From positions 63,580 through 127,579 of the forward strand of contig CACYHH010000003.1 of NCBI GenBank assembly GCA_902774115.1: a stretch of DNA of 64,000 nucleotides. The letters run 5' to 3'. This document shows positions 4,959 to 60,562 of this stretch, in pieces. The notes under the pieces were generated by a model. That model saw only the letters and a list, made by a program, of their open reading frames with translations. It was not told the DNA's origin and made no database searches. This stretch comes from an uncultured Spirochaetales bacterium (GTDB lineage Bacteria > UBP6 > UBA1177). Both the position numbers and the translations under genes were made by a program. Numbering within the stretch: the first letter of the stretch is position 1; every line of letters starts with the position of its first letter.

Positions 4959-5049
4959 TTTTTTGCCTCCAAAACTAAAAAGTGCCAAAATAAACGACGA
5001 ATAATAGTCTGATTTCTCATGAAAGCAATGAAAAAGTTTCTTCTTAGGG

Positions 5050-18303: not shown

Positions 18304-18408
18304 TTATTCCTCCAAAATTAAAAAAACCTTTTGAATTTAGGGAAAAAAAGAGAGTTAGTCAATATTTTGGATTTTGTTTTTTTGCCTGACGGATCTGAAT
18401 AAAAGGAA

Positions 18409-18501
18409 GGCCGGAGAAACCGCAACACACAAACTGTCCGCTACCGCTGCTTCCTCTCGGACCTGACGGGGTTTGCGGGGCTTGTTGTACGGCACCCGGC
18501 C
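18409..18501 (-). ncRNA. ffs: signal recognition particle RNA (4.5S RNA, ffs)
   Basis: The reverse complement contains GUCAGGUCCGAGAGGAAGCAGCGG, a near-exact SRP domain-IV consensus, flanked by pairing GGCCGG...CCGGCC ends. Boundaries are approximate. Confidence 0.55.
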
Positions 18502-18505
18502 ACAA

Positions 18506-18596
<91 letters not shown>

Positions 18597-18621
18597 ATGA
18601 ACCGGAAAAAGGATAAAAATA

Positions 18622-18715
18622 TGGCGGAGAGATAGGGATTCGAACCCCAGGCACCCTGTAAAGAGCGCACCTGATTTCGAGTCAGGCTCCTTCGACCACT
18701 CGGACATCTCTCCGC
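18622..18715 (-). tRNA. tRNA-Ser (anticodon CGA)
   Basis: GCGGAGAGAUGUCCGAGUGG...anticodon loop CUCGAAA...GGUUCGAAUCCC...CCA. Confidence 0.8.
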
Positions 18716-18716
18716 G

Positions 18717-19214
18717 TTATTCAAGATTTCCGGATTCGGACTGTTTTTTCGAAAGTTTCTGCTTTTCCCTGATTTCACGGAAGAAACCTGATAAAAGTTC
18801 GGCAGACTCTACAGCCAGAATCCCTTCAACGACTTCCACCCTGTGATTTAAGCGCTCGTCTTCGAGAAGCGTGTAGAGCGATCTCACTCCGCCTGCTTTC
18901 GGATCTCTTGCACCGAAATAAACTTTGGGGATCCGAGACTGCACTATCGCGCCGCTGCACATGATGCAGGGCTCCAAAGTGACATAAAGCTCGCAATCCT
19001 CAAGCCGCCAGCTTTTTAAATAAGCTGCAGCTTCGCTTATTGCCTCGATTTCCGCATGGGAAAGGGGGGACTGGGCGGATTCGCGTTTGTTGAATCCTTT
19101 TCCGATTACTCTGTTTTCAAAGACCACGACTGCGCCGACGGGAACTTCGCCCATCTCTCTCGCCTTTTCAGCAAGGTCAAGCGCAATTTTCATATATTCG
19201 GTTTCTCTTGTCAT
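18717..19214 (-). CDS. tadA: tRNA-specific adenosine deaminase TadA
   Basis: HAEIEAI...EPCIMCSGAI CDA-fold zinc motifs. The longer ORF (to 19271) would overlap tRNA-Arg, so I chose the internal start MTRETEY. Confidence 0.75.
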   Translation of the reverse strand: MTRETEYMKIALDLAEKAREMGEVPVGAVVVFENRVIGKGFNKRESAQSPLSHAEIEAISEAAAYLKSWRLEDCELYVTLEPCIMCSGAIVQSRIPKVYFGARDPKAGGVRSLYTLLEDERLNHRVEVVEGILAVESAELLSGFFREIREKQKLSKKQSESGNLE

Positions 19215-19222
19215 CACCGGTA

Positions 19223-19299
19223 TGGCGCGCCCAGGAGGACTCGAACCTCCAGCCTTTTGGTCCGTAGCCAAACGCTCTATCCAATTGGGCTATGGGCGC
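19223..19299 (-). tRNA. tRNA-Arg (anticodon ACG)
   Basis: GCGCCCAUAGCCCAAUUGGAUAGAGCG-UUUGG-CUACGGA-CCAAA-...GGUUCGAGUCCUCC-UGGGCGC-GCCA. Anticodon loop CUACGGA. Confidence 0.8.
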
Positions 19300-19309
19300 C
19301 CAAAAAAAG

Positions 19310-19404
19310 TGGCGGAGAGGGAGGGATTCGGACCCTCGATGGAATTATTAGTCCCATACCCACTTAGCAGGCGAGCTCCTTCGGCCTCTCGGACACCTCT
19401 CCGC
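19310..19404 (-). tRNA. tRNA-Ser (anticodon GCU)
   Basis: GCGGAGAGGUGUCCGAGAGG...anticodon loop CUGCUAA...long variable arm...GGUCCGAAUCCC...CCA. Confidence 0.75.
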
Positions 19405-19412
19405 AGCACATC

Positions 19413-19502
19413 TGGCGGAAGAGGTAGGATTCGAACCCACGGACGCGTAAACGTCAACGGTTTTCAAGACCGCCGCCTTCGACCACTCGGCCACTCTTCC
19501 GC
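19413..19502 (-). tRNA. tRNA-Ser (anticodon UGA)
   Basis: GCGGAAGAGUGGCCGAGUGG...anticodon loop CUUGAAA...GGUUCGAAUCCUACC...CCA. Confidence 0.75.
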
Positions 19503-44315: not shown

Positions 44316-45316
44316 TTTTTTGTACGATCCTTCTTTTCATAAGTTCGTGCGCCTATTCCGGTTTCAAAAAATATGCCGATGTTCCGGAAGAGGAGTTCAA
44401 AATCGAAGAGATGAATTTCGATGAAGATTTCAAGGAATTTGCCGAAGGAGATATGAACTACACTGTCGGAGTCGGCGACGAAATCAAGATCACGATCTAC
44501 GGAAACCCTCAGGACAGTACGCAGGCAACCGCTCTTGGCGAGATTTTCGGTCATGCCGTAGATGAAAACGGCGAAATCAACATTCCTCTTTTGAAACAGG
44601 TGAAAATTGCCGGTCTTACAAGAAAGGAAATTGTCGAAAAACTTGAGGAAGGTTATTCGAAATTCATCAAAGATCCGCATATAATGTTTGATATCGTCAA
44701 ATACGAAAGCAAATTCTACTATGTTGTCGGCAACGTAAAAAACGCCGGCAAAAATCCGATAAAAGTCAATACGAATATGCTTGAAGCGGTTACCGGAATG
44801 GTTCCTTCGTCTTCTTCTGAAAAAAATTCGATTGAGTTCGTCTATCTTAAACGCGGTGAAAATGTCCTTCCGATAAGCGTCAGCGAGATGGCGACGGGAG
44901 CGCGCGATTTTTCGAAGTATTACCTGAAAGACGGCGACACTTTCTATGTTCCGGCTCCTTCCGCAAACAGAGTCTACATTCTCGGTGAAGTCAAAAATCC
45001 CGGCGCTTTCGAGATGACCGGCAGCAACTACACGATGATAGACCTTGTTGCAGATGCCGGAGGTCTTGTCCAGCCTAATGCAGCCGACGGAAGGATATAT
45101 ATGATTCGTCAGACCGGCGGAAAACACCTTTTGGTTCAGTTTCACTTTGATGATATTATGACCGGAAAAGCGGGTTCAGTGCGTCTTATGCCGGGTGACA
45201 GAGTTTTCGTTGCTCCGCTCGCTCTGGTCAGTTACAACCGCATAATACAGCAGATCGCGCCGACATTCTCACTCCTTTATACCGGAACACTTCTCTACAA
45301 CAACTGGACAAAATAA
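44294..45316 (+). CDS. polysaccharide export lipoprotein (Wza/Poly_export family)
   Basis: Lipobox (LLFISSCAY). Poly_export-like YTVGVGDEIKITIYG. Repeated SLBB-like segments. Confidence 0.55.
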   Translation: MAFKHSLIFCTILLFISSCAYSGFKKYADVPEEEFKIEEMNFDEDFKEFAEGDMNYTVGVGDEIKITIYGNPQDSTQATALGEIFGHAVDENGEINIPLLKQVKIAGLTRKEIVEKLEEGYSKFIKDPHIMFDIVKYESKFYYVVGNVKNAGKNPIKVNTNMLEAVTGMVPSSSSEKNSIEFVYLKRGENVLPISVSEMATGARDFSKYYLKDGDTFYVPAPSANRVYILGEVKNPGAFEMTGSNYTMIDLVADAGGLVQPNAADGRIYMIRQTGGKHLLVQFHFDDIMTGKAGSVRLMPGDRVFVAPLALVSYNRIIQQIAPTFSLLYTGTLLYNNWTK

Positions 45317-45352
45317 CTAAATTAAACGTTACGACGGAACGACGTCACGGTG

Positions 45353-47836
45353 TTACGATTTCAGTTTTTCTTCGATTGCTTCTTTTACGGCTGAAGCGAG
45401 TTCTTCGCGGGTTTTTCCTTCCGGATTTATCGGCGGAAGATATGTGACATTGATTCTTTTGAAAGGGTGGGGAAATTTTCTGTTGCGGGGAAACGCTTCA
45501 AATGCACCGTCAATCGCAACAGGAATGACCGGAACGCTGATTTCGCAGGCAAGGAGGGAGAATGTCTGCTTGAAATCGCCCAAACCGCCGTCGCGGCTGC
45601 GTGTTCCTTCCGGGAAAATCAGGACGTTGCGCCCTTTTTTGAGAACTGATGCCATCCGTTTTATCGAATCGACGATCTCTTCGTCTTCACGCATGATTAT
45701 GATGTTGTTGCGTTTTGCCATGTATCGGCGCCACCACTGCTTGAAGTGCTTTTCCTTGGCGAAGCAGTAGGTGCGTTTGAACTCTTTTGCCGGAATTTTT
45801 GCCAGCACGAAAAGGGCATCTACCACGCTCTGGTGGTTTGCGGCGAAGATGACCGGTCCTTCGGGAATATTTTCAGTTCCGAAAAAGCGGACTTTGAAGA
45901 AAGTTCTGACCGCGCTTACAAGAGAAAATCTAAGAAGTCTGTGGTAAAACGCGCTTCTCGGTAGCTCGATGTTGTTGATATTTTCCCTGAGAACCGTTTT
46001 CCAGTCCTGTTTTGCGCTGTTAACTTTTCTGCTGCTTCTTTCGGCTGTGAAACCGGCGATTTTGCGAACGGTTGCCATATTCTGAATGTCGGTTTCGCTG
46101 ATTTTTATGCCGAATTCCGAATTGATGAACGATGCCAGTTCGATTTTGTCGAGCGAGTCGAGCCCTAAATCGATTTCGATATGGTCATCCGGAAAGACCT
46201 TTTTTTCGCTTGTTTTCTCAATATATTCAGCGATTTTTGCATATTCTTTGGTGCCGGGGATCTCGCACTTTGCCCGTTTTTCGTCCTTGTTTTTAAGAAA
46301 TTCCTCAAGTTTGAAACGCTGGATTTTGTCGAGTCTCGTCCGCGGCAGCGGCTGGTTCGTTAAGGTAAAATCGAGTATTTTTTTATGGTGTGAAGCCGTT
46401 GAGTTGTATCTGTCGATGATTTCCCAGCGTATGTATTCTTCTAAATTCGGGATCTGCCGCTCTGCAAGTATTTTTTCATCAGGTCTGATGATGGCGCAGA
46501 GAACGCCGTTTTTCGCTATGACCGCGATTTCTTTGATCAAAGTGTCGCTTCTTTCGATATTCTGCTCGATTTCGGTCGGATTTACGTTTTTGCCGTTGCC
46601 GAGAATGATGATTTCTTTTTTTCTGCCGGTGATGCAGAGGTTTCCCTCTTTGTCGAAGTGACCGAGATCGCCGGTGTAAAGCCATCCGTCACGCAGAACT
46701 TCGGCAGTTTCTTCGGGGCGGTTGTAGTAGCCTTTCATTATGTTTTTTCCGGTCGCAACAATCTCTCCGTCAACGATTTTTACCGTTCCTTTCGAAAGTT
46801 CGGTTCCGACGCATCCCGCTTTGCCTTTGCCGGGGCGGGGGAAGGTTATCATCGGGCTTGCTTCGGTCATCCCGTAGCCGTCTCCGATCGAAAAACCGAG
46901 CACTTTGAAGCAGTTCCAGACCTCGGGATCGAGCTTCGCGCCGCCGCAGATGAAGTGTTTAAGATTGCCGCCGAATTTTTTTGCGACCGATTTGAAGATT
47001 ATTTTTGAAAAAGCGGTGCTGTTCGCGATTTTTGCTGTTCTGAATATAGCTTTCGTGAGAAATCCCGAGTTTATTTTCTGCATGATCCCTTTCATCATCA
47101 TTTCGTAGAATCTGGGGACTGCAAGGATCATCGTCGGGTGGCTTTTTTCCATCATTTTGGCAATGTCGGAAGCCTGGAGCGACGGGCAGATTACGGCTTT
47201 TCCTCCGCCTAAAAGAGGAGCTACGACCGTTCCTAAAAGCGGAAAGATGTGGTGCAGCGGAAGAATCATCAGAACGACATCTGAGCTTGTGTAGTAGCCG
47301 CATTCCTGAAGTGCGTCCATGTTTGCCATGATGTTGCGGCATGAAAGCATGACCCCTTTCGGTGAGCCCGTTGTGCCGGAAGTGTAGATTATAAGTGACG
47401 TTTTTTCCTTGTCTTCGACATCGAAATCTGCGGCTTCGTATTTGGAAATGTCGCCCTTTATTTCCTCGAAAACGATCTTTCTTATCTCAGTTTTACCGGA
47501 AATTTCTATTGCTTTTCCGACATTTTCACGCACCTTTTCCGAGAAGCAGATCACGTCCGGCGAACAGTCGTTGATGATGTAGGCGATTTCTTCCGGAGTG
47601 CTCATGAAATCGACAGGAACGACGATCCCGTCCGATTTCCAGATGCCGTAGAACGAATAAATATATTCAGGTCTGTTTTCGCTTATGATAAGGACTCTTT
47701 TTCCGTCGAGATTGCCGAGAATATCAGAAAAAAACGCGACTGTTTTGAGCAGATCCGAGTATGTGATTTCTGAATTTTCTGTAACTATCGCGATGTTGCT
47801 GGTGTTTTTCAGGAACATGCCTCTCTCCTCCGGCAA
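45353..47836 (-). CDS. tri-domain acyl-AMP ligase - acyl carrier protein - lysophospholipid acyltransferase fusion
   Basis: AMP-binding IIYTSGTTGSPKGV. Internal PP-binding DLGLDSLDKIELASFI. C-terminal LPLAT NHQSVVD (HX4D) and FPEGTRS. Confidence 0.7.
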   Translation of the reverse strand: MPEERGMFLKNTSNIAIVTENSEITYSDLLKTVAFFSDILGNLDGKRVLIISENRPEYIYSFYGIWKSDGIVVPVDFMSTPEEIAYIINDCSPDVICFSEKVRENVGKAIEISGKTEIRKIVFEEIKGDISKYEAADFDVEDKEKTSLIIYTSGTTGSPKGVMLSCRNIMANMDALQECGYYTSSDVVLMILPLHHIFPLLGTVVAPLLGGGKAVICPSLQASDIAKMMEKSHPTMILAVPRFYEMMMKGIMQKINSGFLTKAIFRTAKIANSTAFSKIIFKSVAKKFGGNLKHFICGGAKLDPEVWNCFKVLGFSIGDGYGMTEASPMITFPRPGKGKAGCVGTELSKGTVKIVDGEIVATGKNIMKGYYNRPEETAEVLRDGWLYTGDLGHFDKEGNLCITGRKKEIIILGNGKNVNPTEIEQNIERSDTLIKEIAVIAKNGVLCAIIRPDEKILAERQIPNLEEYIRWEIIDRYNSTASHHKKILDFTLTNQPLPRTRLDKIQRFKLEEFLKNKDEKRAKCEIPGTKEYAKIAEYIEKTSEKKVFPDDHIEIDLGLDSLDKIELASFINSEFGIKISETDIQNMATVRKIAGFTAERSSRKVNSAKQDWKTVLRENINNIELPRSAFYHRLLRFSLVSAVRTFFKVRFFGTENIPEGPVIFAANHQSVVDALFVLAKIPAKEFKRTYCFAKEKHFKQWWRRYMAKRNNIIIMREDEEIVDSIKRMASVLKKGRNVLIFPEGTRSRDGGLGDFKQTFSLLACEISVPVIPVAIDGAFEAFPRNRKFPHPFKRINVTYLPPINPEGKTREELASAVKEAIEEKLKS

Positions 47837-47964
47837 AAAACAGGCGCATATTATTTATTTCGGCATGAAAAGTAAAGATAGTACCGGTTTTTATGCAGGA
47901 ATTGTGAAAAAATCAAAAAACATTATAATGCACCGCTTTTTGATTTATTGACTGTCGGTGATTT

Positions 47965-48675
47965 ATGAAATTTTCGCTTCTTATTCCGGTTTACAACGAG
48001 GAAAAAACACTTGATCTGATTTTTTCAAGAGTTTTCGAGCTTGAAAAATCACCTCTGATCGATGAACTTGAAGTTATCGCGGTTGATGACTGTTCAAAAG
48101 ATAACTCTTTGAATTTATTGAAAAAATATGAATCGGACGGCAGAATAAAGCTGTTTCATCACGAAAAAAATCAGGGGAAAGGGGCGGCAGTCAGAACGGC
48201 TATGGCGAATGCGACGGGCGATTATGTCGTTTTTCAGGACGCCGACCTTGAATATGACCCGCAGGATCTGCTGAAAATGCTCGATTATGCTGTCAAAAAC
48301 AATGTCGATATCCTTTACGGCAGCCGTTTCCTGGGGAAAAAGACGAGCCCCCTCGGTAAATTTCACTATTTAGTGAACGCAGGACTTACGACTTTCTCAA
48401 ATCTTTTCACCGGTCTGAATCTCACCGACATGGAAACATGCTATAAAATGTTCAAAGGCGAAGTTTTGAAAGAAATAAACATCGAAGAAGACCGCTTCGG
48501 TCTCGAACCTGAAATCACGGCTAAAGCGGCAAAAATCTGCGCCGCAAAAAATCTTGCAGTCAAGGAAATTCCGATCAGCTATAACCCGCGCAAATCGGAT
48601 GAAGGCAAAAAAATCGGAGCCAAAGACGGTCTTCGTGCAGTCTATATCATCCTGAAATACGGATTGTTCGAATAA
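47965..48675 (+). CDS. family-2 glycosyltransferase (polyprenol-phosphate sugar transferase, ArnC/DPM1-like)
   Basis: VIAVDDCSKDNS and VFQDADLEYDP (DxD). 236 aa. Confidence 0.65.
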   Translation: MKFSLLIPVYNEEKTLDLIFSRVFELEKSPLIDELEVIAVDDCSKDNSLNLLKKYESDGRIKLFHHEKNQGKGAAVRTAMANATGDYVVFQDADLEYDPQDLLKMLDYAVKNNVDILYGSRFLGKKTSPLGKFHYLVNAGLTTFSNLFTGLNLTDMETCYKMFKGEVLKEINIEEDRFGLEPEITAKAAKICAAKNLAVKEIPISYNPRKSDEGKKIGAKDGLRAVYIILKYGLFE

Positions 48676-48707
48676 AACGTTACGGCGTCACGTTGAAGGC
48701 ACGGCAA

Positions 48708-50162
48708 TTATTCCGAAGCCTCTTCGTTGAATGAATCAAGCATGGTTTTTACAGTTTCCGGCGGGAGCCTGAAGTGAAGTCCCTGGGGAATTTCAAGAAG
48801 TTCATGCGGATAGAACTCCTGGATTCCGACAAATTTCAAGTCTTTGTCGAGGATAGCCGCTTTTCCTTTTCTTCCGGTCGTCCTGAAAACATCAAGGGAA
48901 CACGCCAGCTGTTTTTTGCCGATGACGCGGAGAATCGTTCCGGGCGGGAAGACTCCGAGCGCGCTGAAAAGTGCTTTGACCGTAACCTTGGCAAAACAGC
49001 GCATATCAGCCATTTTGAAAAGCTGTTCTATTGCTTCCGGACGTTTCATGGGCATGGTTTTGCGTGCCGGCCACCAGCGTGTCGCGAGATCGTAGTAGTC
49101 GCAGACTTTTATGAGTTCGCCCAGAGGCGTTGACATAATCGGTTTTTCCGGCGGTACCGGTTTGCAGTCGAAAGTATATGTCGTATGGTGAAGACCTGCC
49201 GTGATCGCAGCTTCCATCATTGCGAAGTTGAGTGAATTGAGTCTGCTCAAAACCGCAAAACCGTTCTGGCAGTGTTCGACGACTTCTCCCTTTGAATTTT
49301 CCGGAAGGTCGATGTCGTGGAAGTATGCCGCGGTGCCGATTCTGGTGAGAAGCGAACGGTCTATGCCGAGCTGAACTCCGGCGGCAATACTTAAAATAGC
49401 CGTATTTGTCAGGTGAGTCGCGATCATTTTGCCGCGGAGACTGTTTATCGAAGCCAGAACCATGAGATGTGATTCCTGTGAATCGCTTGAACCGTCGCAG
49501 ATCATGTCGATCGCGTTCTGGATGTTTCTCATAGCCTTTTTCAGCGGCATCGGACGGTTTTCGTTGATTTTCGTCTTGAACATCGAATGGTCAAGTACCA
49601 TATTGCGGTAGGTGAGTCTCGCTAGCTGGCTTTTGTTCAGGATGTTGAAAAGGTCGTCTCCGCCTGAACTGTCGCGCTGCGTTATCTGGATTTTTATTCC
49701 TTTGCTTTTGATTTTTTTCTCAAAGTAGTCAAAGACAACGTCGCTTTTGATGTTCGATTTTATTACTTCCTGACCGATAAGCATAAATTCGATTATTTCG
49801 CTGATTCCGCCTGCCTTTTGAAATACTATTGTCGCAACCTGCAGGTGGATGTAGAAATCCTCAAGTTCGTCGAACGAAATATTCAGTCCTTTTTTCCGGC
49901 GCACCCTTACGTCGTTGAGCATAAAGTCGTTGCCGTTGAAGGTGAAATCGAAAAAAGAGTCGGTGGCAAAAAAGAACTTTATTGTTTCGCCCAGTTTTTC
50001 AGTATTTTTTTCAACAGTTTCGTTTGCCGGACCGTAAAGCCTGAGTGCCTTCAAAAGAGCATTGAACGCAACTGTGAAATCATACATTCTTTCTCTTTCG
50101 ACCCTGTCTGAATTTTCAAAAAATTCAGAGGATATCACATTGTTCTGAAGTTCTTCGCTCAT
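48708..50162 (-). CDS. HD-GYP-like domain protein with degenerate GYP motif
   Basis: C-terminal half shows H..N.A.L...LGI...AAYFHDIDLP, GLHH, then PLGELIKVCDYYDLATR in HD-GYP order. FDCKPVP occupies the GYP position. Confidence 0.4.
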   Translation of the reverse strand: MSEELQNNVISSEFFENSDRVERERMYDFTVAFNALLKALRLYGPANETVEKNTEKLGETIKFFFATDSFFDFTFNGNDFMLNDVRVRRKKGLNISFDELEDFYIHLQVATIVFQKAGGISEIIEFMLIGQEVIKSNIKSDVVFDYFEKKIKSKGIKIQITQRDSSGGDDLFNILNKSQLARLTYRNMVLDHSMFKTKINENRPMPLKKAMRNIQNAIDMICDGSSDSQESHLMVLASINSLRGKMIATHLTNTAILSIAAGVQLGIDRSLLTRIGTAAYFHDIDLPENSKGEVVEHCQNGFAVLSRLNSLNFAMMEAAITAGLHHTTYTFDCKPVPPEKPIMSTPLGELIKVCDYYDLATRWWPARKTMPMKRPEAIEQLFKMADMRCFAKVTVKALFSALGVFPPGTILRVIGKKQLACSLDVFRTTGRKGKAAILDKDLKFVGIQEFYPHELLEIPQGLHFRLPPETVKTMLDSFNEEASE

Positions 50163-52207
50163 AAGTATTTATCCTTGATTTTATTGACTATTTTAACTGT
50201 TTCCTTGTTGCCGGACGACAAAGATTTTTCTATGAATTTTTTAGCTTCAGGATCGTTCCTGTAGTAGAAAATCGCTTTGTAGAATTCTTCTTTCGCAGTC
50301 GGTACAGATTTGTTGAAAAGACTTCCGGATGCAGAAAGCATGTTTTTAACTGCCGGGAAAAGTTCCGGAAAAATCTCAGGTTTCAGAAGTTTACAGAAAG
50401 CCTGAAGCTCGTCGGTTTTCATTTTCGACAGAGAGTTTATGTCTGCCGCCCTGATTATAAATTTTTCAAAGTGACTCATTGTTGTCGCTTTCTGTATCGC
50501 CTGTATCGCTTTCATCCTTATTTCGGGGTCTTCGGTCAGAAGCTGCTGCCCCAAAAGGTCGAAAAGATCGTAGCGGCGCAGAGAAATTATCATCTGAAAA
50601 ATCTCGTCAATTTCGTCGTTTTCAAGTTTTTTAAGGTTGTGGACCTGAAGCAGACGGTTTACGATCGGTTTGATCGCCGTATTGTCCTTGAGTTCGAGAA
50701 TCTTCTGTATTGCCGCACTTCTGACATCTCTGGCGGATGAGAAGACCGCTCTTTCAAGTGCCGGAAGAGCTTCTTCGACCGAAAATTCCATGAGAAGAGC
50801 CAGAGCTTCGATACGCGCCTGTTTCTGCGGATGTGAAACGGTCGCCCTGATTGCGGGAAGGATTCTCGGATCTTTTTTATCTTTCATCATTGCCAGTGCA
50901 TTACGGACGACTTTCCAGTCGGAATGTCTTGTAAGGGCAAGGAGATCGTCGGTTATAGGCATGTGTTCCGAGCAGCTGTGTATAATTGCGATTCTCGTGT
51001 CCTTTGAATCGATACTGTTGATTTTGGAAAGAAGGAATTCCATTTTTTTCGCCGGAACCATTGCAAAAAGTTTGCCGATAACGGCAATTTCCTCTGCAGG
51101 AATATCTTCTATCGTGAAAAAGAAATCGCTTAAAAACTCTTCGTTTTCAAGGTCTGCAAAAGTATCTCTTATCTTTTTGGCATATTCCGGCTGAGTGTGC
51201 TGAAGCTGTTCCGCAATGGTTTTCAAAGTCTGAATGAAGAGGATCGCGCCGCTTACCGAGCCGAAAAGAAGCAGTTTTTCCCAAAGCGAAACGGCGGTGT
51301 CCAGAAGCTCTTTTCCCGCTTTTGTCCCCTGACTGCTCATAAGCCGCGAAGAAAGTTCCTTCAGAAAGCGGTTGACAACGAAAGAATCGCTGTTTCTTTT
51401 CAGGGCTTCGTCAAATTTGAACATCTCCATTTTGCCGACGATGTAGTTCGAAAGCCTCTGGTTGAGCAGCTCTTTGCGCTCATTAAAATCGATCTCTCTC
51501 TCTTCTTTCATCATAAGTTCCGAATATTTTTCGAAATCGGATGATTCGAACTTCGGAGCGTTCGCCATATCCTGCGGTGAGTTTCCCGCGCCTTCCTTGC
51601 CTTCATTGTCTATTTCGCCGATACCGTCGAAACCGGGACCGTATGAAAGTTCTTCGACAAGAAACGGTGAGAAATTATCTGCATCATTCGAAATTGAAAG
51701 ATTCTGTTTTATGAGCTCATCCTCAGTAATATAGCCGATATTCGTGAAATTGTGATCCCAGAGAAGAGTTGAAAGGTCGTAGTCTTCGTTTGCGAACAGC
51801 GTGCACTGCGCCAGAATATCGAAAAACTGCCAGATTTCATCTTTCTGGGTTCCTTTCTGGAAAAAAATCTCGCGCAGACCATCGTTGTAAAGGAAAAAAA
51901 CGACTTCGCGGTCTTTTTCACCGGTTTCCAGAACATGACTGCCGAGCATAAAACCCTTTGTGGAAATCCTTAATGAAATCGAAGGAATATCGGAAAGAAT
52001 CTCATCCAGTTTTACCTTGAACTGGTCTGCAAACCTGGAAAATGCGGGATTCGTTCTCGGATAGAGCCTGTAGCCGCGGATGACCTTTCCGAAAAGGGTG
52101 ACAAGTTCTTTAGTCGATTTGACCAGCTCGTTGTCATCAAACAGCTTGTCGGCATTGTCTTTAAAAAAATCAAATATTTCTCTCTTTTTTTCGCTTGCTT
52201 TTACCAT
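50159..52207 (-). CDS. HEAT/PBS-lyase-repeat protein, hypothetical
   Basis: Tandem HEAT-like repeats (PAIRATVSHPQKQARIEALALL..., ALPALERAVFSSARDVRSAAIQKIL...). ATGA overlap with the downstream HD-GYP-like gene. Confidence 0.5.
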   Translation of the reverse strand: MVKASEKKREIFDFFKDNADKLFDDNELVKSTKELVTLFGKVIRGYRLYPRTNPAFSRFADQFKVKLDEILSDIPSISLRISTKGFMLGSHVLETGEKDREVVFFLYNDGLREIFFQKGTQKDEIWQFFDILAQCTLFANEDYDLSTLLWDHNFTNIGYITEDELIKQNLSISNDADNFSPFLVEELSYGPGFDGIGEIDNEGKEGAGNSPQDMANAPKFESSDFEKYSELMMKEEREIDFNERKELLNQRLSNYIVGKMEMFKFDEALKRNSDSFVVNRFLKELSSRLMSSQGTKAGKELLDTAVSLWEKLLLFGSVSGAILFIQTLKTIAEQLQHTQPEYAKKIRDTFADLENEEFLSDFFFTIEDIPAEEIAVIGKLFAMVPAKKMEFLLSKINSIDSKDTRIAIIHSCSEHMPITDDLLALTRHSDWKVVRNALAMMKDKKDPRILPAIRATVSHPQKQARIEALALLMEFSVEEALPALERAVFSSARDVRSAAIQKILELKDNTAIKPIVNRLLQVHNLKKLENDEIDEIFQMIISLRRYDLFDLLGQQLLTEDPEIRMKAIQAIQKATTMSHFEKFIIRAADINSLSKMKTDELQAFCKLLKPEIFPELFPAVKNMLSASGSLFNKSVPTAKEEFYKAIFYYRNDPEAKKFIEKSLSSGNKETVKIVNKIKDKYL

Positions 52208-52430
52208 TTTTCAAGACCTCAAAAATTTCCGCGCATTTTAGCTGTTAAGATGAAAAGTGCAATTTTTATTGTCGTTACGACGAAACGCCGTTACGCCGTA
52301 ACGATATTAATGATGGGAATTGAGAAGAACGACGAAACGTCGTGACGACGTGACGTCGGGTATCGCGCTTTATTTCTTTTTAATTTTGTGTTATAAAACC
52401 CGGCTTTTGTTGATTTTGTTGGAGAATGCA

Positions 52431-53441
52431 ATGGCGGAAGGTATTTTGAGAAGAGATCCTCTCAATAAGATCTGGGTGATTTTTGCACCGGAAAAGGTGA
52501 AAACGGTGATTTCGGGAAGTTCGGAAAACGATGCGGTTTTTGATGTCGATCCTTTTGTTCCCGGTTTTGAAGCTGCCACAGGTCCCGATATTATGCGGAG
52601 TTCTGATCCTGTTTATTCGGTAGGTGGCTGGTCTTCGCGCGTTTTCCCTGCGAAAAATCCTATACTCAGAGTCGAAAACGAAAAAAACGGCAGAGGACAC
52701 GGGCTTTACGATTCGATGTCGAGGCTCGGAGCGCATGAAGTCGTTGTTGAAACGCCGAAAAGCGGCATCGGTCTCGACCAGCTTTCGGTCGAAGAAATCG
52801 CTGACGGAATCAAAATCATTTTTGACCGTATTTCCGACCTCAGAAAAGATACCCGTTTCCGCTATATTTCGGTTACTAAAAACAGAGGTGCCGCAGCCGG
52901 AGGAACGATCAACCACAACTATTCCGAAATCAAGGCATATCCCTTCATTCCGCCGTTTGTCCGCAATAAACTCGACAACTGCCTTGAATATTACCGCATG
53001 AAAGAGCGCTGCCTGCTCTGCGACATCATCGATCAGGAGCTTTCCGAGAGAAAAAGGATAGTCTGCGAACACGACAACTTTGTTGCAGTCTGTCCGTATG
53101 CAAGCCGCTTTCCCTTTGAAATAATGGTCCTTCCGAAAAAACACGGCAGGATTTTAAGTGACAATCCCGCTTCGGCGATAGGCGATTTTGCGAAAATTCT
53201 TAAACCGGTTATGACAAAGTTGAGACTCGGGCTCAATTCGCCTGCCTACAACATGGTTTTCCACTATCTTCCGGTAAACAGCGGAAGAGAGGCTGAGAGC
53301 GAAAGTCTGGCATATCACTGGCATCTTGAAATAATTCCGCGAATTTCCGTGATAACTGCCGACAGTTTTGAAAACGGCATTTTCGTAAATCCGACTCTGC
53401 CGGAAGATGCGGCTGAGTTTTTGAGAAACATAAGGGAGTAG
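52431..53441 (+). CDS. galactose-1-phosphate uridylyltransferase (GalT, HIT branch III) family protein
   Basis: RRDPLNKIWVIFAPEKVK, SRVFPAKNP, GAHEVVVETP and C-terminal YHWHLEIIPR are GalT-like. The expected CPFC and HPHGQ motifs appear altered, as far as I can align by eye. Confidence 0.5.
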   Translation: MAEGILRRDPLNKIWVIFAPEKVKTVISGSSENDAVFDVDPFVPGFEAATGPDIMRSSDPVYSVGGWSSRVFPAKNPILRVENEKNGRGHGLYDSMSRLGAHEVVVETPKSGIGLDQLSVEEIADGIKIIFDRISDLRKDTRFRYISVTKNRGAAAGGTINHNYSEIKAYPFIPPFVRNKLDNCLEYYRMKERCLLCDIIDQELSERKRIVCEHDNFVAVCPYASRFPFEIMVLPKKHGRILSDNPASAIGDFAKILKPVMTKLRLGLNSPAYNMVFHYLPVNSGREAESESLAYHWHLEIIPRISVITADSFENGIFVNPTLPEDAAEFLRNIRE

Positions 53442-53444
53442 GTT

Positions 53445-54302
53445 ATGAAGTATTCGATTATTCCTGCGGCAGGGCTCGCGACCCGTTTCCTGCCGGCGTC
53501 AAAGTGCATCCCGAAGGAGCTTTTCCCGGTTTTGGACAAGCCTGTGATCCAGTATATCGTCGAAGAGTCGATAGAAGCAGGCGCAACGAACGTCGTTTTT
53601 GTCTCGGGCAGCGGAAAAGAGGCAATCCTCGACCATTTTGACAGGATAAATCCGAAATTTTCGGCCAAAAACCTCAAGGAAGATGTCCGCGAGAAGGTTG
53701 AAACGCTTGACGACATGATCGAAGTCATTTCTGTCCGCCAGAAATCTCCGCAAGGTTTGGGGCACGCCGTTATGAAGGGAACTTTCGTGATCCCGGAAGC
53801 AGAATCGTTTGCCGTAATGCTTCCCGACATGCTTATTTTTTCTGAGGGTGAAAGCACTGTTATGCAGGAAATGAGCCGCATCAGCGAAAAATACGGCTGC
53901 TCAGTCATTGCTCTCATGGAAGTTCCTGCAGAATCGCGCGGAATGTACGGCATTGCTGAGGGGGCAACTCTTGAAAACGGAGTCATCGATATTAAAAAAC
54001 TTATCGAAAAACCATCTGTGGGCGAGACTGAATCCAATCTTGCCGTTTTGGGAAGATACATTTTCACGCCGAGGATTGCCAAAATTCTGAGAACCGTCAA
54101 ACCCGGCAGAGGCGGGGAGATCCAGCTTACCGACGCAATGGTTTCGCTCCTTGCCGAAGAGCAGATCTTGGGTTACGTTATTGACTCCAAAACACGCGTT
54201 TTCGACACCGGAAACATGGAAGGTTTTGCCCTTGCAAATGCTTACGCTGCGCTTCGCAGAGTCCCTGATTTCGACAAAAAAATCGCTGAATTAATCAAAT
54301 AA
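53445..54302 (+). CDS. galU: UTP--glucose-1-phosphate uridylyltransferase
   Basis: MKYSIIPAAGLATRFLPASKCIPKELFPV signature. 285 aa. Confidence 0.85.
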   Translation: MKYSIIPAAGLATRFLPASKCIPKELFPVLDKPVIQYIVEESIEAGATNVVFVSGSGKEAILDHFDRINPKFSAKNLKEDVREKVETLDDMIEVISVRQKSPQGLGHAVMKGTFVIPEAESFAVMLPDMLIFSEGESTVMQEMSRISEKYGCSVIALMEVPAESRGMYGIAEGATLENGVIDIKKLIEKPSVGETESNLAVLGRYIFTPRIAKILRTVKPGRGGEIQLTDAMVSLLAEEQILGYVIDSKTRVFDTGNMEGFALANAYAALRRVPDFDKKIAELIK

Positions 54303-54432
54303 TATCGTGACGGCGTCACGTCGTCTCGCCGTCACGTTTCGTCGTTACGCTGCCTTCGAAATATTGTTGCCGCCATGTCGATATATCGGAATATCGAAAT
54401 TTCGAAATATCGACGAGATCTGGCGGCGGCGA

Positions 54433-56580
54433 TTATTTCTTGACCAGTTTGAATTTCCCGTTCTCGACGGTGATGACGGCTTTGGTCTTGGGCGGCAGAT
54501 TGCCTTTTAAAATCTCAGTCGCAAGCAGCGTTTCGACATTCTTTTCAAGGTAACGTCTGACCGGTCTTGCGCCGTATTCAGTGTTGAAGGATTCGTCGAT
54601 GACTTTCTGCATTGCCAAATCATCAAGGTCGAGGTGAAGCTCTTTATCCTCAAGGATCTTGTTGATGTTCCTGAGAAGAAGAGCGGTTATCTCCTTCAGG
54701 TTGTCGGTCGAAAGCGGGTTGAAGACCACGATATCGTCGATACGGTTGATAAATTCAGGTTTGAACCTTCCTTTTATCGTCTGCATTACGGCATCGAGTT
54801 CGGTTTCGGAAAGTTTTCCGTCCTTCGCTTCGATCATGTCGCTTCCGAGGTTCGAAGTCATGATTATTATCGTGTTCTTGAACGATACGGTTCGACCCTG
54901 GTTGTCTGTCAGACGGCCGTCTTCAAGTATCTGGAGCAGAATGTTGAAGACATCTTCGTGAGCCTTCTCGATTTCGTCAAGCAGGACGATGGAGTAGGGT
55001 TTTCTTCTGACCGCTTCTGTGAGCTGGCCGCCTTCGTCGTAGCCGACATATCCTGGAGGCGCACCGATAAGACGCGAAACGGAGAATTTCTCCATGTATT
55101 CACTCATATCAATACGAACCATGTTGTCAGCCGTATCGAAAAGCTGTTCCGCCAGTTTTTTGGCAAGTTCTGTTTTGCCGACACCTGTCGGGCCTACGAA
55201 AATGAAGGAACCGAGCGGTCTGTTCGGGTTGGTGAGACCTGCACGCGATCTCAGGATCGCCCTCGTGATGCTTTCAATTGCTTCGTTCTGACCGATTATC
55301 TCCTCTTTCAGCCTGTTCGAAAGATTGAGGATCCTCTCTTTTTCGGTCTGGGTCATGCTCGAAACCGGAATGCCTGTCCACTTGCTGACGACTTCTGCGA
55401 TCTGTTTTTCGGTAAGGACTTCTGTTACCATGACATTTTCGTTTTTGGTTATCTCCTGAGCCTCTTTCAGTTTGGCTTCAAGAGTTCTCAGTCTGCCGTA
55501 CTGGAGTTCGCCCACTTTGTTGAAGTCTCCTTCGCTCTGAGCCCTTTCGATCATGGTCTTGACCTCGTCAATCTCTTTTTTGAGTTTTTTGACCTCTTCG
55601 ATCGAAGCCTTTTCCTTCTGCCAGATCTTGTACTGTTTGTCGTATTCGTCCGTTGTCTCTTTCAGACGCTCCTCGACGTTTCTGATCTCCTCTTTTGTCG
55701 CACCCGAATCCTTTCTGCGGAAGCCTTCGAACTCGATCTGGAGCTGGAGTTTCTTACGCTTGAGGTCGTCAAGCTCTGCCGGCATGCTGTCGTTGTCGGT
55801 CCTGAGCATTGCACAGGCTTCATCGATAAGGTCGATCGCCTTGTCGGGCTGGAAACGGTCTGAAATGTAACGGTTCGAAAGTTTTACCGCCGCCACGATA
55901 GCCCCTTCAGAAATCGTGATCCCGTGATGGATCTCGAAACGCTCACGCAGACCACGCAGGATAGAGATCGTCTCGTCTTCATCCGGCGGCTGGACAATAA
56001 GAGGCTGGAACCTTCTTTCAAGGGCGGCATCCTTTTCGATGTACTTTCTGTATTCGTCGAGAGTCGTCGCACCTATGCAGTGCAGTTCTCCTCGTGCCAG
56101 CATAGGTTTGAGCATGTTTGCCGCATCCATGCTGCCGTCGGTTTTGCCCGCTCCGACGATCGTGTGAAGCTCATCGATGAAAAGGATGATCTTTCCTTCC
56201 GATTCCTTGACCGCTTTCAGGACATCTTTCAGCCTTTCCTCAAATTCGCCGCGGTATTTCGCTCCCGATATAAGGGCACCCATATCGAGCTCGAAGATCT
56301 CTTTGTTCTGAAGGCTTACAGGCACGTCGCCGCGGACGATCCTCCGTGCCAGACCTTCAACGATCGCCGTCTTGCCGACACCGGGCTGACCGATGATGAC
56401 CGGGTTGTTTTTGGTTCTTCTCGAAAGGATCCTGATGATCCTTCTGATTTCGCCGTCACGCCCGATCACAGGGTCGAGTTTCCCCGCCTTGGCAAGATCG
56501 ACAATGTTTCTTCCGTAGTTTTTCCACGAATCTTTGTTCGTTTCATTCTCGTTAACATTGTAATCCATAGCAACCTCCAT
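54433..56580 (-). CDS. clpB: ClpB-type AAA+ disaggregase lacking the N-terminal Clp_N domain
   Basis: Two AAA+ modules ([30 protein letters not shown]) and a long coiled-coil M-domain. Only about 30 aa precede the first AAA module. 715 aa. Confidence 0.8.
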
Positions 56581-59056: not shown

Positions 59057-59083
59057 GGGCTTCCTTCGGGAAGCCCTTTTTTT
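59057..59083 (+). terminator. rho-independent terminator
   Basis: GGGCUUCC-UUCG-GGAAGCCC followed by a U7 tract, directly after the aminotransferase stop. Confidence 0.8.
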
Positions 59084-59155
59084 ATTTGAAATCTGTAAAA
59101 ATGGCAAAAACTTCTTTATTGAGTAAAATTCTTTGTTTTATTCTTGGAGGGAGAT

Positions 59156-60502: not shown

Positions 60503-60515
60503 TTTTAATTTGCCG

Positions 60516-60562
60516 CCCCTGATGCAGGGGAGGTGGCGCAACGCGCCGGAGGGGTTTCAGGT
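60516..60562. terminator. two adjacent GC hairpins between convergent genes (possible bidirectional terminator)
   Basis: CCCCTG-atg-CAGGGG (60516-60530) and GGCGC-aac-GCGCC (60535-60547), followed by a T-rich stretch. Confidence 0.35.

What the first reader, a model, noticed from the sequence alone, without database searches (positions are those of the whole stretch)
45326..54350. Dispersed family of CGTNACG / ACGACGAAACG inverted-repeat elements punctuating three consecutive operons
Four intergenic gaps carry related GC-rich elements built from the 7-mers CGTTACG, CGTAACG, CGTCACG and CGTGACG, arranged as spaced inverted repeats. The four sites are 45326-45357, 48676-48703, 52270-52358 (two copies) and 54305-54350. 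Examples are CGTTACG-C-CGTAACG, CGTGACG-G-CGTCACG and ACGACG-AAA-CGTCGT. Two sites share an almost identical 15-mer (C/T)AACGACGAAACG(T). I saw nothing similar elsewhere in the 64 kb. The elements sit between convergent or divergent genes and bracket the FAAL-ACP-AT/GT2 unit, the HD-GYP/HEAT operon and the galT/galU operon. They could be REP-like elements, terminators, or operator sites of a shared regulator.
Basis: seen in the sequence. Interest (0 to 1): 0.6.

Follow-up and report, generated by a model that had tools for sequence, protein, structure and literature searches.

The report
Dispersed octamer-repeat elements between genes
The four GC-rich motif clusters are real, short members of a genome-wide family of 8-base tandem repeat modules specific to an uncultured rumen bacterial lineage; they behave like REP-type "junk or mobile" intergenic repeats rather than regulator sites, and the same modules also build the linker of that lineage's TonB protein.

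Summary
Five CGTNACG arrays sit in four gaps (45325-59, 48677-703, 52271-305, 52329-57, 54303-49) and nowhere else in the 64 kb, far above chance.

They are not primarily inverted repeats. They are head-to-tail octamers (A-CG-T-N-ACG), usually four per module (32 nt). The central bases of different units are not complementary.

The source is an uncultured rumen lineage (UBP6/UBA1177 MAGs). Metagenome contigs of this lineage carry the same core, CGTTACG-A-CGAAACG-A-CGTGACG-A-CGTAACG, in dozens of unrelated contexts. It occurs naked, inside GC clamps (GCCGCC...GGCGGC), or mixed with other octamer flavours (TCGATATT, GGATCNCG, TTATAACG). All flavours keep a CG every 8 nt.

At orthologous gaps, sister species have other flavours, the opposite orientation, nested copies, or no gap at all. 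That rules out a shared operator.

Arrays favour convergent gaps (12/42, against 1/149 tandem gaps). No RAYT transposase was seen, and no Rfam family matches.

Unexpectedly, about 115 TonB orthologs have linkers encoded in-frame by these modules, one with 39 consecutive octamers. So the arrays are transcribed through and are not terminators by themselves.

Verdict: a new variant of REP/BIME-like mosaic repeats. How they are copied is unknown.

The parts
45325..45359 (+). Site 1: naked 4-unit ACG module (ACGTTACG ACGGAACG ACGTCACG GTGTTACG). It fills the 36-nt gap between the Poly_export/SLBB gene stop (45316) and the FAAL-ACP-acyltransferase gene stop. Its last unit supplies that gene's stop codon (TTA at 45353-55 on the + strand).
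   Evidence: profile E 1.5e-8; no hairpin (z +1.0). Strains L001 and L003 carry a version 24 nt (3 units) longer.
48677..48703 (+). Site 2: partial, decayed module (CGTTACG G CGTCACG plus a degenerate tail). It fills the 32-nt gap between the convergent stops of the GT2 gene and the 484-aa gene.
   Evidence: profile E 0.05, 2 units only; no hairpin. The orthologous gap is a full 4-unit module in L015, other flavours in L011-L013, and absent (genes overlap) in L017-L019 and L024.
52271..52305 (+). Site 3a: 4-unit ACG module (CGTTACG A CGAAACG C CGTTACG C CGTAACG) between the divergent promoters of the HEAT-protein operon and galT.
   Evidence: profile E 3e-10; folds with z -3.2/-4.2. Present in L011; replaced by unrelated sequence in strains L001 and L006; absent in L017-L019.
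52329..52357 (+). Site 3b: 3.5-unit ACG module (ACG A CGAAACG T CGTGACG A CGTGACG) in the same divergent gap.
   Evidence: profile E 7e-8; this site was not matched by the pattern used to collect the profile. Folds with z -1.6/-3.0.
54303..54349 (-). Site 4: ACG array of 5-6 units, canonical orientation on the minus strand, with one 3-nt register slip. It starts 3 nt after the galU stop.
   Evidence: profile E 2.5e-7; hairpin z -2.6/-3.3; conserved in L011; replaced by GATC-flavour arrays in L017-L019.
54364..54432 (.). It abuts the ClpB-like gene stop.
   Evidence: CG period-8 run of 6 units at 54371-54412; TRF period 8 x4.5. The whole gap folds as two adjacent hairpins, z -4.8/-3.9. The same architecture recurs in L017 site 3, L099, L108 and the L056 TonB linker.

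Best explanation
The four sites are short members of a lineage-specific, genome-wide family of mosaic intergenic DNA repeats in an uncultured rumen lineage (UBP6/UBA1177).

The basic building block is an octamer anchored by CG. In the ACG flavour it is A-CG-T-N-ACG. It is typically repeated four times head to tail, giving a 32-nt module with consensus CGTTACG-A-CGAAACG-A-CGTGACG-A-CGTAACG. Modules occur naked (as in this window), enclosed by a GC-rich inverted clamp, or combined or nested with sister flavours (TCGATATT, GGATCNCG, TTATAACG).

Shown:
- The modules are copied between unrelated loci as whole units with a conserved unit order.
- They change in steps of 8 nt.
- They flip orientation, swap flavour, or disappear at the same site between close relatives.
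- They accumulate where DNA is tolerant: between convergent stop codons, between divergent promoters, and in-frame in the disordered linker of TonB.

Inferred: they work as a DNA-level repeat 'library' that spreads and turns over by slippage or unequal exchange within arrays, and by gene conversion or a trans-acting element-specific protein between loci, as REP/BIME elements do. Any effect on the flanking FAAL/GT2, HEAT and galTU operons is incidental, at most a 3' hairpin at sites 3 and 4. They do not tie these operons into one regulon.
For: Real and non-random in the window.

Organism and relatives.

Dispersed family:
- The metagenome scan returned about 45 lineage loci (GC 0.43-0.50) with the same oriented core in different gene contexts. 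Three separate hits each fall on contigs of 318 kb and 216 kb.
- Of 84 distinct arrays, 58 have exactly 4 units.
- Density is about 7 arrays per 100 kb in close relatives, and 0 in 57 kb of distant ones.

Turnover:
- A 24-nt indel at site 1 and an allele replacement at site 3 among near-identical strains.
- Different flavours, or no gap at all, at orthologous gaps.
- A clean ~144-nt filled-versus-empty pair (L073/L092); opposite orientations at the same site (L095/L080, L074/L093, L060/L108); flavour swaps; and nesting (L099/L089).

Location: 12/42 convergent, 2/42 divergent and 1/149 tandem gaps carry an array. This matches published REP behaviour, where conv-REPs lie within 20 bp of both ORF ends and intragenic copies exist (PMC3733652).

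DNA-level rather than RNA-structure logic:
- Modules are weak hairpins (median z -0.7).
- Central bases of different units are not complementary; units 1 and 4 are identical in 12/22 cases.

Coding co-option:
- Orthologous TonB_C proteins have linkers built in-frame from the modules.
- This holds for about 115 of 120 homologs, in all flavours.
- DNA check: 39 consecutive octamers in L126 and 51-nt GATC-flavour repeats in L125.
- An exact 31-mer is shared between the L126 TonB linker and an intergenic element in L102.

No Rfam family matches.
Against: - No mobilising enzyme was identified. There is no RayT-like ORF in 756 kb, and no gene is flanked by inverted element arms.
- Only one clean filled-versus-empty pair was found, and its possible target duplication (AATAA) is ambiguous.
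- The strict 8-nt register, the CG anchor shared by all flavours, and the 4-unit quantum are not explained by a neutral-repeat model. They are what periodic protein recognition would predict.
- The strong convergent-gap bias and the retention of some array at sites 2 and 4 across several species could reflect selection for a function.
- The copy-number estimate comes from fragments, not a complete genome.
- Orthologous gaps were counted repeatedly.
Confidence: 0.65

Rival explanations
1. Periodic protein-binding platforms. Each octamer is a palindromic half-site pair (CGT-N-ACG) bound by a dimeric DNA-binding protein that polymerises along the array at 8-bp steps. Four units span 32 bp, about three helical turns. 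The formal parallel is MetJ on tandem 8-bp metboxes, or omega and ParG on short tandem repeats. The protein could be a nucleoid or chromosome-structuring factor, or the element's own transposase or partition-like protein, rather than a gene-specific regulator.
For: - Strict 8-nt register with conserved CGT/ACG triplets and a free central base.
- A 4-unit quantum in 58 of 84 arrays.
- Direct-repeat logic rather than hairpin logic, and weak folding.
- All flavours keep a CG every 8 nt.
- Genuine CGTNACGN tandem octamers also occur next to gene starts in unrelated high-GC phages, where they look like operators.
Against: - At least four flavours have different inner sequences, so one sequence-specific protein cannot read them all.
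- Arrays vary in presence, flavour and orientation at the same site between close relatives.
- Most lie between stop codons, not at promoters.
- Long arrays sit inside a translated gene.
- No candidate protein was identified.
- The MetJ, omega and ParG comparison rests on my own knowledge and was not tested here.
Confidence: 0.17
2. Transcript 3'-end elements. The arrays act at the RNA level as bidirectional terminators, or as hairpins that protect the mRNAs of convergent genes from 3' exonucleases.
For: - Strong enrichment between convergent stops, within a few nt of ORF ends.
- Sites 3a, 3b and 4 and the long gaps of relatives fold into one or two stable hairpins on both strands (z -2 to -4.8).
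- Clamp arms stay complementary as their sequence changes (PP 8, QQ 3, PQ 0, QP 2; p 0.035).
- REPs are proposed to have such roles (PMC3733652).
Against: - Sites 1 and 2 have no hairpin.
- There are no U-tracts, and the scan finds fewer terminator-like sites than shuffles do (9 against 18), while a canonical hairpin+T7 terminator exists at 59060-59090.
- Family-wide folding is weak, with no complementarity at the free positions.
- Arrays of up to 306 nt are transcribed and translated inside TonB.
- Many canonical copies sit in divergent promoter gaps (11 of 27 classifiable).
- Some species have overlapping gene ends and no element at site 2.
Confidence: 0.12
3. Operator sites of one shared transcription factor that co-regulates the FAAL/GT2, HEAT and galTU operons.
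For: Related motifs lie in four neighbouring gaps. One gap (site 3) is a true divergent promoter region.
Against: - Three of the four sites lie between stop codons.
- Site 3 arrays are absent or replaced in strains L001 and L006 and in species L017-L019, while the promoter hexamers stay conserved.
- The same core occurs next to dozens of unrelated genes.
Confidence: 0.03
4. Independent local microsatellite-like expansions at each gap, with no copying between loci.
For: Indels come in multiples of 8 nt. Long pure arrays exist in TonB.
Against: The same ordered series of four different units recurs at dozens of unrelated loci. An exact 31-mer is shared between a coding and an intergenic site. 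Independent local expansion does not produce this.
Confidence: 0.03

Closest known systems
REP / BIME elements (repetitive extragenic palindromes, including the GTAG- and CGTC-tagged superfamilies; Di Nocera et al. 2013, PMC3733652)
   Same: - 20-40-nt units in high copy.
- Extragenic, and close to the 3' ends of convergent or co-directional ORFs.
- Several families per genome, and species-specific.
- Variable between strains.
- Mosaic combinations of motifs.
- Occasional intragenic in-frame copies.
- The CGTC type lacks a dedicated transposase.
   Different: - No unpaired GTAG or CGTC tag, no 8-9-bp stem with a 4-5-nt loop, and no CCA tail.
- The module is a tandem direct repeat of four octamers rather than one stem-loop.
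- There is no selection for complementarity at the free positions.
- No RAYT was found.
Rickettsia palindromic elements (RPE) and other intragenic REPs
   Same: Short repeats inserted in-frame into protein-coding genes and tolerated as extra peptide segments (PMC3733652).
   Different: Here one gene (TonB) carries the modules in essentially every ortholog of the lineage. They are amplified to 5-39 units and make up the whole linker. RPEs are single insertions of 100-150 bp in many genes.
Cyanobacterial STRR (short tandemly repeated repetitive) heptamers (own knowledge)
   Same: Very short units repeated in tandem and dispersed at many intergenic sites of one lineage, with several sequence variants.
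   Different: The period is 7 rather than 8. They have no CG anchor, no palindromic unit, no GC clamp and no 4-unit quantum. Not tested here.
MetJ metbox operators and omega/ParG repeat arrays (own knowledge)
   Same: Tandem arrays of 2-5 short (7-8 bp) units, palindromic in the case of metboxes, read cooperatively by dimers at non-helical spacing. This is a formal match to the 8-bp register and the typical array length.
   Different: Those arrays sit in promoters or centromere sites of specific operons and are conserved. These lie mostly between stop codons or inside a gene, exist in several flavours, and turn over rapidly. No cognate protein was identified.
Pneumococcal BOX / neisserial NIME mosaic elements and bacterial MITEs (own knowledge; PMC10969869 listed, not read)
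   Same: Modular architecture with a variable number of internal sub-repeats between conserved arms. The composite clamp-type elements (100-144 nt) have imperfect inverted arms and one clean insertion polymorphism.
   Different: The target-site duplication is ambiguous, no autonomous partner was found, and the sub-repeat is only 8 nt. The window's own copies lack arms and clamps.

Membership tests
REP (GTAG/CGTC-tagged palindromic repeats) | Short (20-40 nt), high-copy, extragenic and dispersed | tested here: met
   Modules are 31-35 nt. About 45 lineage loci carry the core in different contexts. Density is about 7 arrays per 100 kb. All window copies are intergenic.
REP (GTAG/CGTC-tagged palindromic repeats) | The unit is an imperfect palindrome forming a stem-loop (stem 5-13 bp; for the CGTC type, 8-9 bp with a 4-5-nt loop) | tested here: not met
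   Sites 1 and 2 fold no better than shuffles. Across 62 modules the median z is -0.7 and only 19% fall below -2. Central bases of units 1/3 and 1/4 are not complementary, and units 1 and 4 are mostly identical. The definition is from PMC3733652.
REP (GTAG/CGTC-tagged palindromic repeats) | Unpaired terminal GTAG or CGTC (TGTC/CCTC) tag and a CCA-like tail | tested here: not met
   The profile consensus is ACAT-CGTTACG...CGTAACG-AGAA. A TGTCAT precedes the core only in a subset of clamp-type copies. There is no CCA tail.
REP (GTAG/CGTC-tagged palindromic repeats) | Associated RAYT (Y1 transposase) gene flanked by the repeats (GTAG type) | tested here: inconclusive
   phmmer with E. coli RayT against all ORFs of 60 aa or more in 756 kb of lineage sequence gave a best E of 0.9. 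The sequence is partial and redundant, and no complete genome was available.
REP (GTAG/CGTC-tagged palindromic repeats) | Preference for convergent or co-directional gaps, within 20 bp of ORF 3' ends | tested here: met
   Window sites 1, 2 and 4 start 2-9 nt after a stop codon. Arrays occupy 12/42 convergent gaps against 1/149 tandem gaps. Unlike typical REPs, tandem gaps are almost empty.
BIME/NIME-type mosaic elements | Several distinct motifs combined in variable order and orientation at different loci | tested here: met
   ACG, TCGA, GATC and TATAACG arrays, GC clamps and TATCG arms are combined, nested, swapped and inverted.
MITE | Terminal inverted repeats plus a target-site duplication, with filled and empty sites | tested here: inconclusive
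   L073 versus L092 shows a clean ~144-nt insertion with imperfect inverted arms and a possible AATAA duplication. The arm motif occurs singly in 8 loci. The window's copies have no arms.
Intrinsic (Rho-independent) terminator | GC-rich stem-loop directly followed by a U-tract | tested here: not met
   Only one weak consensus match lies within the four sites (54320-54306, minus strand), and the region has fewer matches than shuffles. Sites 1 and 2 have no stem. A canonical terminator exists elsewhere, at 59060-59090.
Intrinsic (Rho-independent) terminator | Stops transcription, so is not tolerated inside an expressed ORF | tested here: not met
   Arrays of 100-400 nt lie in-frame inside intact TonB_C genes in about 115 orthologs. 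Expression itself was not measured.
Operator array of a shared regulator (e.g. MetJ-like RHH) | Tandem 8-bp palindromic boxes, 2-5 copies | tested here: met
   Period 8, 3-5 units, unit CGTNACG. This is a formal resemblance only.
Operator array of a shared regulator (e.g. MetJ-like RHH) | Located in the promoters of the regulated genes and conserved at orthologous promoters | tested here: not met
   Three of the four sites lie between stop codons. Site 3 arrays are absent or replaced in close strains and species while the promoter elements are kept.
CRISPR array | Repeats of 24-48 nt separated by unique spacers of similar length | tested here: not met
   The period is 8 nt with no spacers. Super-arrays (38-60-nt periods) have repeated spacers, not unique ones.
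Known RNA families (Rfam 15) | Match to a curated covariance model | tested here: not met
   No hit at the gathering threshold in the window or in 8 element-rich loci, and none at E<=1 in 45000-54700.

The most novel reading that the evidence does not exclude
The octamer arrays are the substrate of a dedicated, lineage-specific machinery that reads or writes DNA in 8-bp steps. This would be a protein (or protein family) that binds CG-anchored octamers cooperatively, four units per three helical turns, and that copies, flips and exchanges modules between dispersed sites. The TonB linker would serve as a permanent in-frame reservoir or sink for this repeat library. In that case the family would be a new kind of bacterial repeat system, not a REP variant, and would directly couple non-coding repeat dynamics to the evolution of a protein linker.
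Probability: 0.12. Interest if true: 0.75.

Novelty: new variant of a known kind. Interest (0 to 1): 0.55.

Why it matters
**For annotating this window:** the motifs should not be read as a regulon signal linking the FAAL/GT2, HEAT and galTU operons.

**More broadly,** this describes a previously unreported repeat family in an uncultured candidate phylum, with an unusual architecture:
- CG-anchored octamers in a strict 8-nt register.
- A 4-unit quantum.
- Several flavours that are interchangeable at the same site.

The same modules are read in-frame as the whole linker of TonB in about 115 orthologs. That gives a natural system for studying how REP-like DNA spreads without an obvious transposase, how such repeats are domesticated into disordered protein segments, and what enforces a non-codon (8-nt) periodicity inside a gene. 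The arrays are also hypervariable between near-identical strains, so they could serve as strain-typing markers for this rumen lineage.

Tried and rejected
- **Hairpin or terminator as the common feature:** rejected. Sites 1 and 2 do not fold, there is no terminator consensus, family-wide folding is weak, and there is no complementarity at the free bases.
- **Rfam:** nothing.
- **Literature on UBP6/UBA1177:** essentially none; only one rumen MAG survey mentions the names.
- **Restriction-site decoy idea:** rejected. The strongly avoided palindromes in the window are CTAG (O/E 0.08), GGCC (0.28) and GTAC (0.40), which the arrays do not contain. TCGA and GATC are not avoided.
- **Footprints of repeated 8-bp target duplications:** rejected, because the four different units recur in the same order at many loci.
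- **Three-frame stop-codon module idea:** dropped, because the canonical unit order does not cover all frames and the arrays are translated in TonB.
- **Autonomous element search:** the arm motif TTATCGTTATTATCGATTCGCCGCC gave 8 single hits and no inverted pair around a gene. The RayT probe found nothing.
- **Genes next to super-arrays:** ordinary housekeeping genes (phosphorylase, TetR, GT2, TyrRS, radical SAM, TerB, ThyX); no partition, replication or transposase genes.
- **RNAalifold on 11 clamp-type elements:** MAFFT could not register the clamp arms. Only the inner hairpin was recovered, and its pairs were fixed by my search pattern, so the result is uninformative.
- **Viral scan:** only unrelated high-GC phage tandem octamers.

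Full report
**1. Observation**

The four sites exist exactly as described.
- CGTNACG occurs 28 times in the window against 12.8 +/- 3.3 expected from dinucleotide-preserving shuffles. Thirteen of the 28 lie in the four gaps.
- The two-unit pattern CGTNACGNCGTNACG, with up to 2 mismatches, gives 16 hits against 2.0 expected. Thirteen of those lie in the gaps.
- The shared 12-mer AACGACGAAACG is exact at 52328-39 (+) and 54335-46 (-).
- Runs of ACG at a spacing of exactly 8 nt (3 or more in a row) occur 5 times against 0.5 expected. All are in these gaps, and other spacings show no excess.
- A looser detector (CG every 8 nt, 4 or more in a row) finds the same gaps.

However, the elements are head-to-tail octamers (N-CG-T-N-ACG) whose unit is a 7-nt palindrome, rather than 'spaced inverted repeats'.

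**2. Gene context**

Pfam assignments are and ORFs.
- Site 1 fills the 36-nt gap between the convergent stops of a Poly_export/SLBB gene and a FAAL-ACP-acyltransferase gene. It even supplies the latter's stop codon.
- Site 2 fills the 32-nt gap between the convergent stops of a GT2 gene and a 484-aa gene with no Pfam domain.
- Site 3 (two arrays) lies between the divergent starts of the HEAT-repeat protein operon and galT.
- Site 4 starts 3 nt after the galU stop, in a 130-nt convergent gap with a ClpB-like gene.

In the window, 3 of 6 convergent gaps and 1 divergent gap carry arrays. No tandem gap does. A canonical hairpin+T7 terminator exists at about 59060-59090.

**3. Not a common hairpin, not a known RNA**

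As RNA, sites 1 and 2 fold no better than shuffles (z +0.7 to +1.0). Sites 3a, 3b and 4 fold moderately well on both strands (z -1.6 to -4.2). The terminator consensus scan finds fewer matches than shuffles do (9 against 18). Rfam has no match at the gathering threshold, or at E<=1 in the region.

**4. Organism, strains and sister species**

The 484-aa protein is found on 19 metagenome contigs. The HEAT protein retrieves 16 genome loci, all uncultured rumen or gut MAGs, several named 'UBP6 UBA1177', at 58-96% identity.

Among near-identical strains:
- Site 1 differs by exactly 24 nt (three octamers).
- Site 3 is replaced by unrelated sequence in two strains.
- Sites 2 and 4 are unchanged.

Across species the same gaps are strikingly unstable.
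- Site 2 is a 2-unit array in the window and L021, and a full 4-unit ACG module in L015.
- In L011-L013 it is a 95-105-nt composite with TTATAACG/TTATACCG octamers inside a GC clamp.
- In L017-L019 and L024 it is absent altogether, and the two genes overlap.
- Site 4 carries ACG plus TCGA arrays in the window and L011, but GGATCNCG arrays in L017-L019.
- Distant relatives (58-63% identity) show no arrays in 57 kb.

All flavours keep a CG every 8 nt. Long gaps fold into two adjacent hairpins (z -2 to -4.8).

**5. A genome-wide family**

One metagenome scan with CGTNACGNCGRAACGNCGTNACG returned 87 loci. They fall into three populations:
- An unrelated ~300-nt repeat of a 0.50-0.60-GC organism.
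- Scattered high-GC singletons.
- About 45 loci of the rumen lineage (GC 0.43-0.50).

In the rumen-lineage loci, an oriented 4-unit core recurs next to many unrelated genes, with three separate hits each on 318-kb and 216-kb contigs. Roughly 40% of cores are enclosed by a GC clamp whose sequence varies but stays complementary (20 of 45 have an exact clamp of 5 nt or more). Arm types match: 8 PP, 3 QQ, 0 PQ and 2 QP (Fisher p 0.035). Half of the cores (28 of 56) have no clamp.

Of 84 distinct ACG arrays, 58 have exactly four units, 24 have three and 2 have five. The unit profile is A(.46) C(.78) G(.78) T(.64) [G .43/A .36] A C G. Density is about 7 arrays per 100 kb in close relatives.

A profile built only from these other loci recovers the window's sites 3a, 1, 3b and 4 (E 3e-10 to 2.5e-7). 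Site 2 appears as a marginal partial, and nothing else in the window scores. The consensus is ACAT-CGTTACG-A-CGAAACG-A-CGTGACG-A-CGTAACG-AGAA.

**6. How the elements change**

Same-context comparisons show five kinds of change:
- A clean ~144-nt filled-versus-empty pair (L073/L092). It is a composite with imperfect inverted arms, a GC clamp and a central array, and it has a possible AATAA duplication.
- The ACG-core element in opposite orientation at the same site in three pairs (L095/L080, L074/L093, L060/L108).
- Identical arms and clamps with different central flavours (L060/L108, L095/L115).
- One element nested inside another (L099/L089).
- A conserved core with unrelated flanks (L062/L117).

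This is mosaic behaviour of the BIME/NIME kind.

In sequence not selected by the motif, arrays occupy 12/42 convergent, 2/42 divergent and 1/149 tandem gaps (odds ratio 25, p 8e-8). The caveat is that orthologous gaps are counted once per species. In the motif-selected set, cores are 9 convergent, 11 divergent and 7 tandem.

**7. Direct repeats, not selected hairpins**

Sixty-two naked 4-unit modules fold with a median z of -0.7, and only 19% fall below -2.

The only free position in each unit is the central N. It shows no excess complementarity between units 1 and 3 (4 observed against 5.5 expected). For units 1 and 4, complementarity is depleted (1 against 5.7), and the two bases are identical in 12 of 22 cases.

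RNAalifold on clamp-type copies was uninformative.

**8. The same modules build a protein linker**

The long 'super-arrays' (39-nt period x7.9 in L057, 39 x4.8 in L051, 60 x6.8 in L056) lie inside orthologous ORFs. These ORFs share an N-terminal membrane anchor and a TonB_C domain (E about 5e-15). Their linkers are in-frame translations of the modules.

A protein search found 120 homologs of 164-300 aa. About 115 have linkers made of such repeats, in every flavour:
- RDDVTTKRRNETK (ACG)
- NRNIEISKSRNIDETTGAP (TCGA plus GGCGCGCC)
- APRDNGITESRDPGNSS (GATC)
- NRNNVIPESRDNDTENTAP (TATAACG)

The most distant homologs have ordinary Pro/Glu/Lys-rich linkers.

At the DNA level, L126 has 39 consecutive CG-anchored octamers (306 nt) read as an 8-codon repeat. 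L125 has five 51-nt repeats of a GC clamp plus five GATC-type octamers.

Coding periods are all multiples of 3 (24, 39, 51 and 60 nt). Non-coding super-arrays have a 38-nt period (spacing in L083).

An exact 31-mer is shared by the L126 linker and an intergenic element in L102. The arrays are therefore transcribed through and translated, which argues against an intrinsic terminator role and for a DNA-level repeat pool. The window itself does not encode this TonB.

**9. Mobilising enzyme**

No RayT-like ORF was found in 756 kb of lineage sequence (best E 0.9). No inverted pair of element arms flanks a gene. Genes next to super-arrays are housekeeping genes. This is inconclusive, because no complete genome was available.

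**10. Comparison with known systems**

Published REP properties are a 20-40-bp unit, a preference for convergent and co-directional gaps within 20 bp of ORF ends, several families per genome, intragenic copies, and CGTC-type REPs without a dedicated transposase (PMC3733652). These match how the elements behave.

Formal membership fails. There is no GTAG or CGTC tag, no 8-9-bp stem with a 4-5-nt loop, no CCA tail, and no selected palindromy.

The tandem 8-bp palindromic units resemble MetJ metbox arrays in form (own knowledge). Genuine CGTNACGN tandem octamers also occur in unrelated high-GC phages. However, position, flavour diversity and turnover argue against a gene-specific operator.

**11. 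Verdict**

The finding is real. It is best explained as short members of a new, lineage-specific family of mosaic octamer-repeat elements that work like REP/BIME repeats at the DNA level (confidence about 0.65).

Three things remain unexplained: the strict 8-nt register with its CG anchor, the 4-unit quantum, and the process that copies modules between loci and into TonB. These keep a periodic protein-recognition model alive (about 0.17). An RNA 3'-end role gets about 0.12.

It is a new variant of a known kind, with moderate interest (0.55). Most of that interest comes from the TonB-linker co-option and the unusual periodic architecture.

Noticed in passing
window 54364-54432: A second array type in the site-4 gap: a GC clamp (GCCGCCA/TGGCGGC) enclosing TCGA-flavour octamers (ATATATCG GAATATCG AAATTTCG AAATATCG). 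It forms a strong hairpin next to the ClpB-like gene stop.
   Followed up: yes
L057:5631-6389(-), L051:5753-6571(-), L056:438-1304(-), L125:10001-10777, L126:10001-10903; proteins P0001-P0116: The TonB-family protein of this lineage has a linker encoded in-frame by the same octamer modules. The flavour and copy number differ in nearly every ortholog (164-300 aa). L126 has 39 consecutive octamers.
   Followed up: yes
L030 7224, L031 725, L032 319, L034 11157, L035 11979, L033 3986 (viral contigs, GC 0.59-0.71): Unrelated high-GC phage contigs carry true tandem octamers of the same unit type (CGTAACGG x3, CGTCACGC x4, CGTGACGG x3). In L031 and L032 they lie just upstream of a conserved gene start (MSFVKLDT...). 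They look like operator or iteron arrays.
   Followed up: partly
L038 6680-6979, 9613-9912, 11607-11906, 13515-13814 (and about 25 other loci, e.g. L039, L043-L046, L053, L066, L081): A different organism (GC 0.50-0.60) has a ~300-nt repeat recurring every 1.9-2.9 kb between co-directional ORFs. It contains the hairpin CGTCACGACGGAACGGCGTGACG. There is no Rfam match. The layout resembles a cassette array.
   Followed up: partly
window 52208-52430 vs L001/L006: In two otherwise near-identical strains, the whole spacer between the divergent HEAT-operon and galT promoters is replaced by a different 64-nt allele. That allele resembles the one in species L017-L019, which suggests inter-lineage recombination at this gap.
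   Followed up: partly
Only the adjacent 682-aa protein has a hit (HEAT_2).
   Followed up: partly
window 3828-3963 and 4592-4836, inside ORF 2337-4988 (-): Coding tandem repeats with periods of 9, 18, 24, 27 and 36 nt (for example GGCTCAGTCGTCGGTTCCGTGGTA x5.4) in an 883-aa ORF. They are unrelated to the octamer arrays.
   Followed up: no
window 18406-19500 (-): A cluster of five tRNA genes directly next to the small SRP RNA gene (Rfam hits).
   Followed up: no
whole window (arrays masked): Strong avoidance of CTAG (O/E 0.08), GGCC (0.28) and GTAC (0.40), and mild avoidance of ACGT (0.62). CpG is over-represented (O/E 1.38). This may reflect restriction-modification pressure.
   Followed up: no
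window 60503-60562: A convergent gap with two GC-rich hairpins (CCCCTGATGCAGGGG; GGCGCAACGCGCC), preceded by TTGCCGCC, the same motif as the clamp arm of the mosaic elements, but with no octamer array.
   Followed up: no
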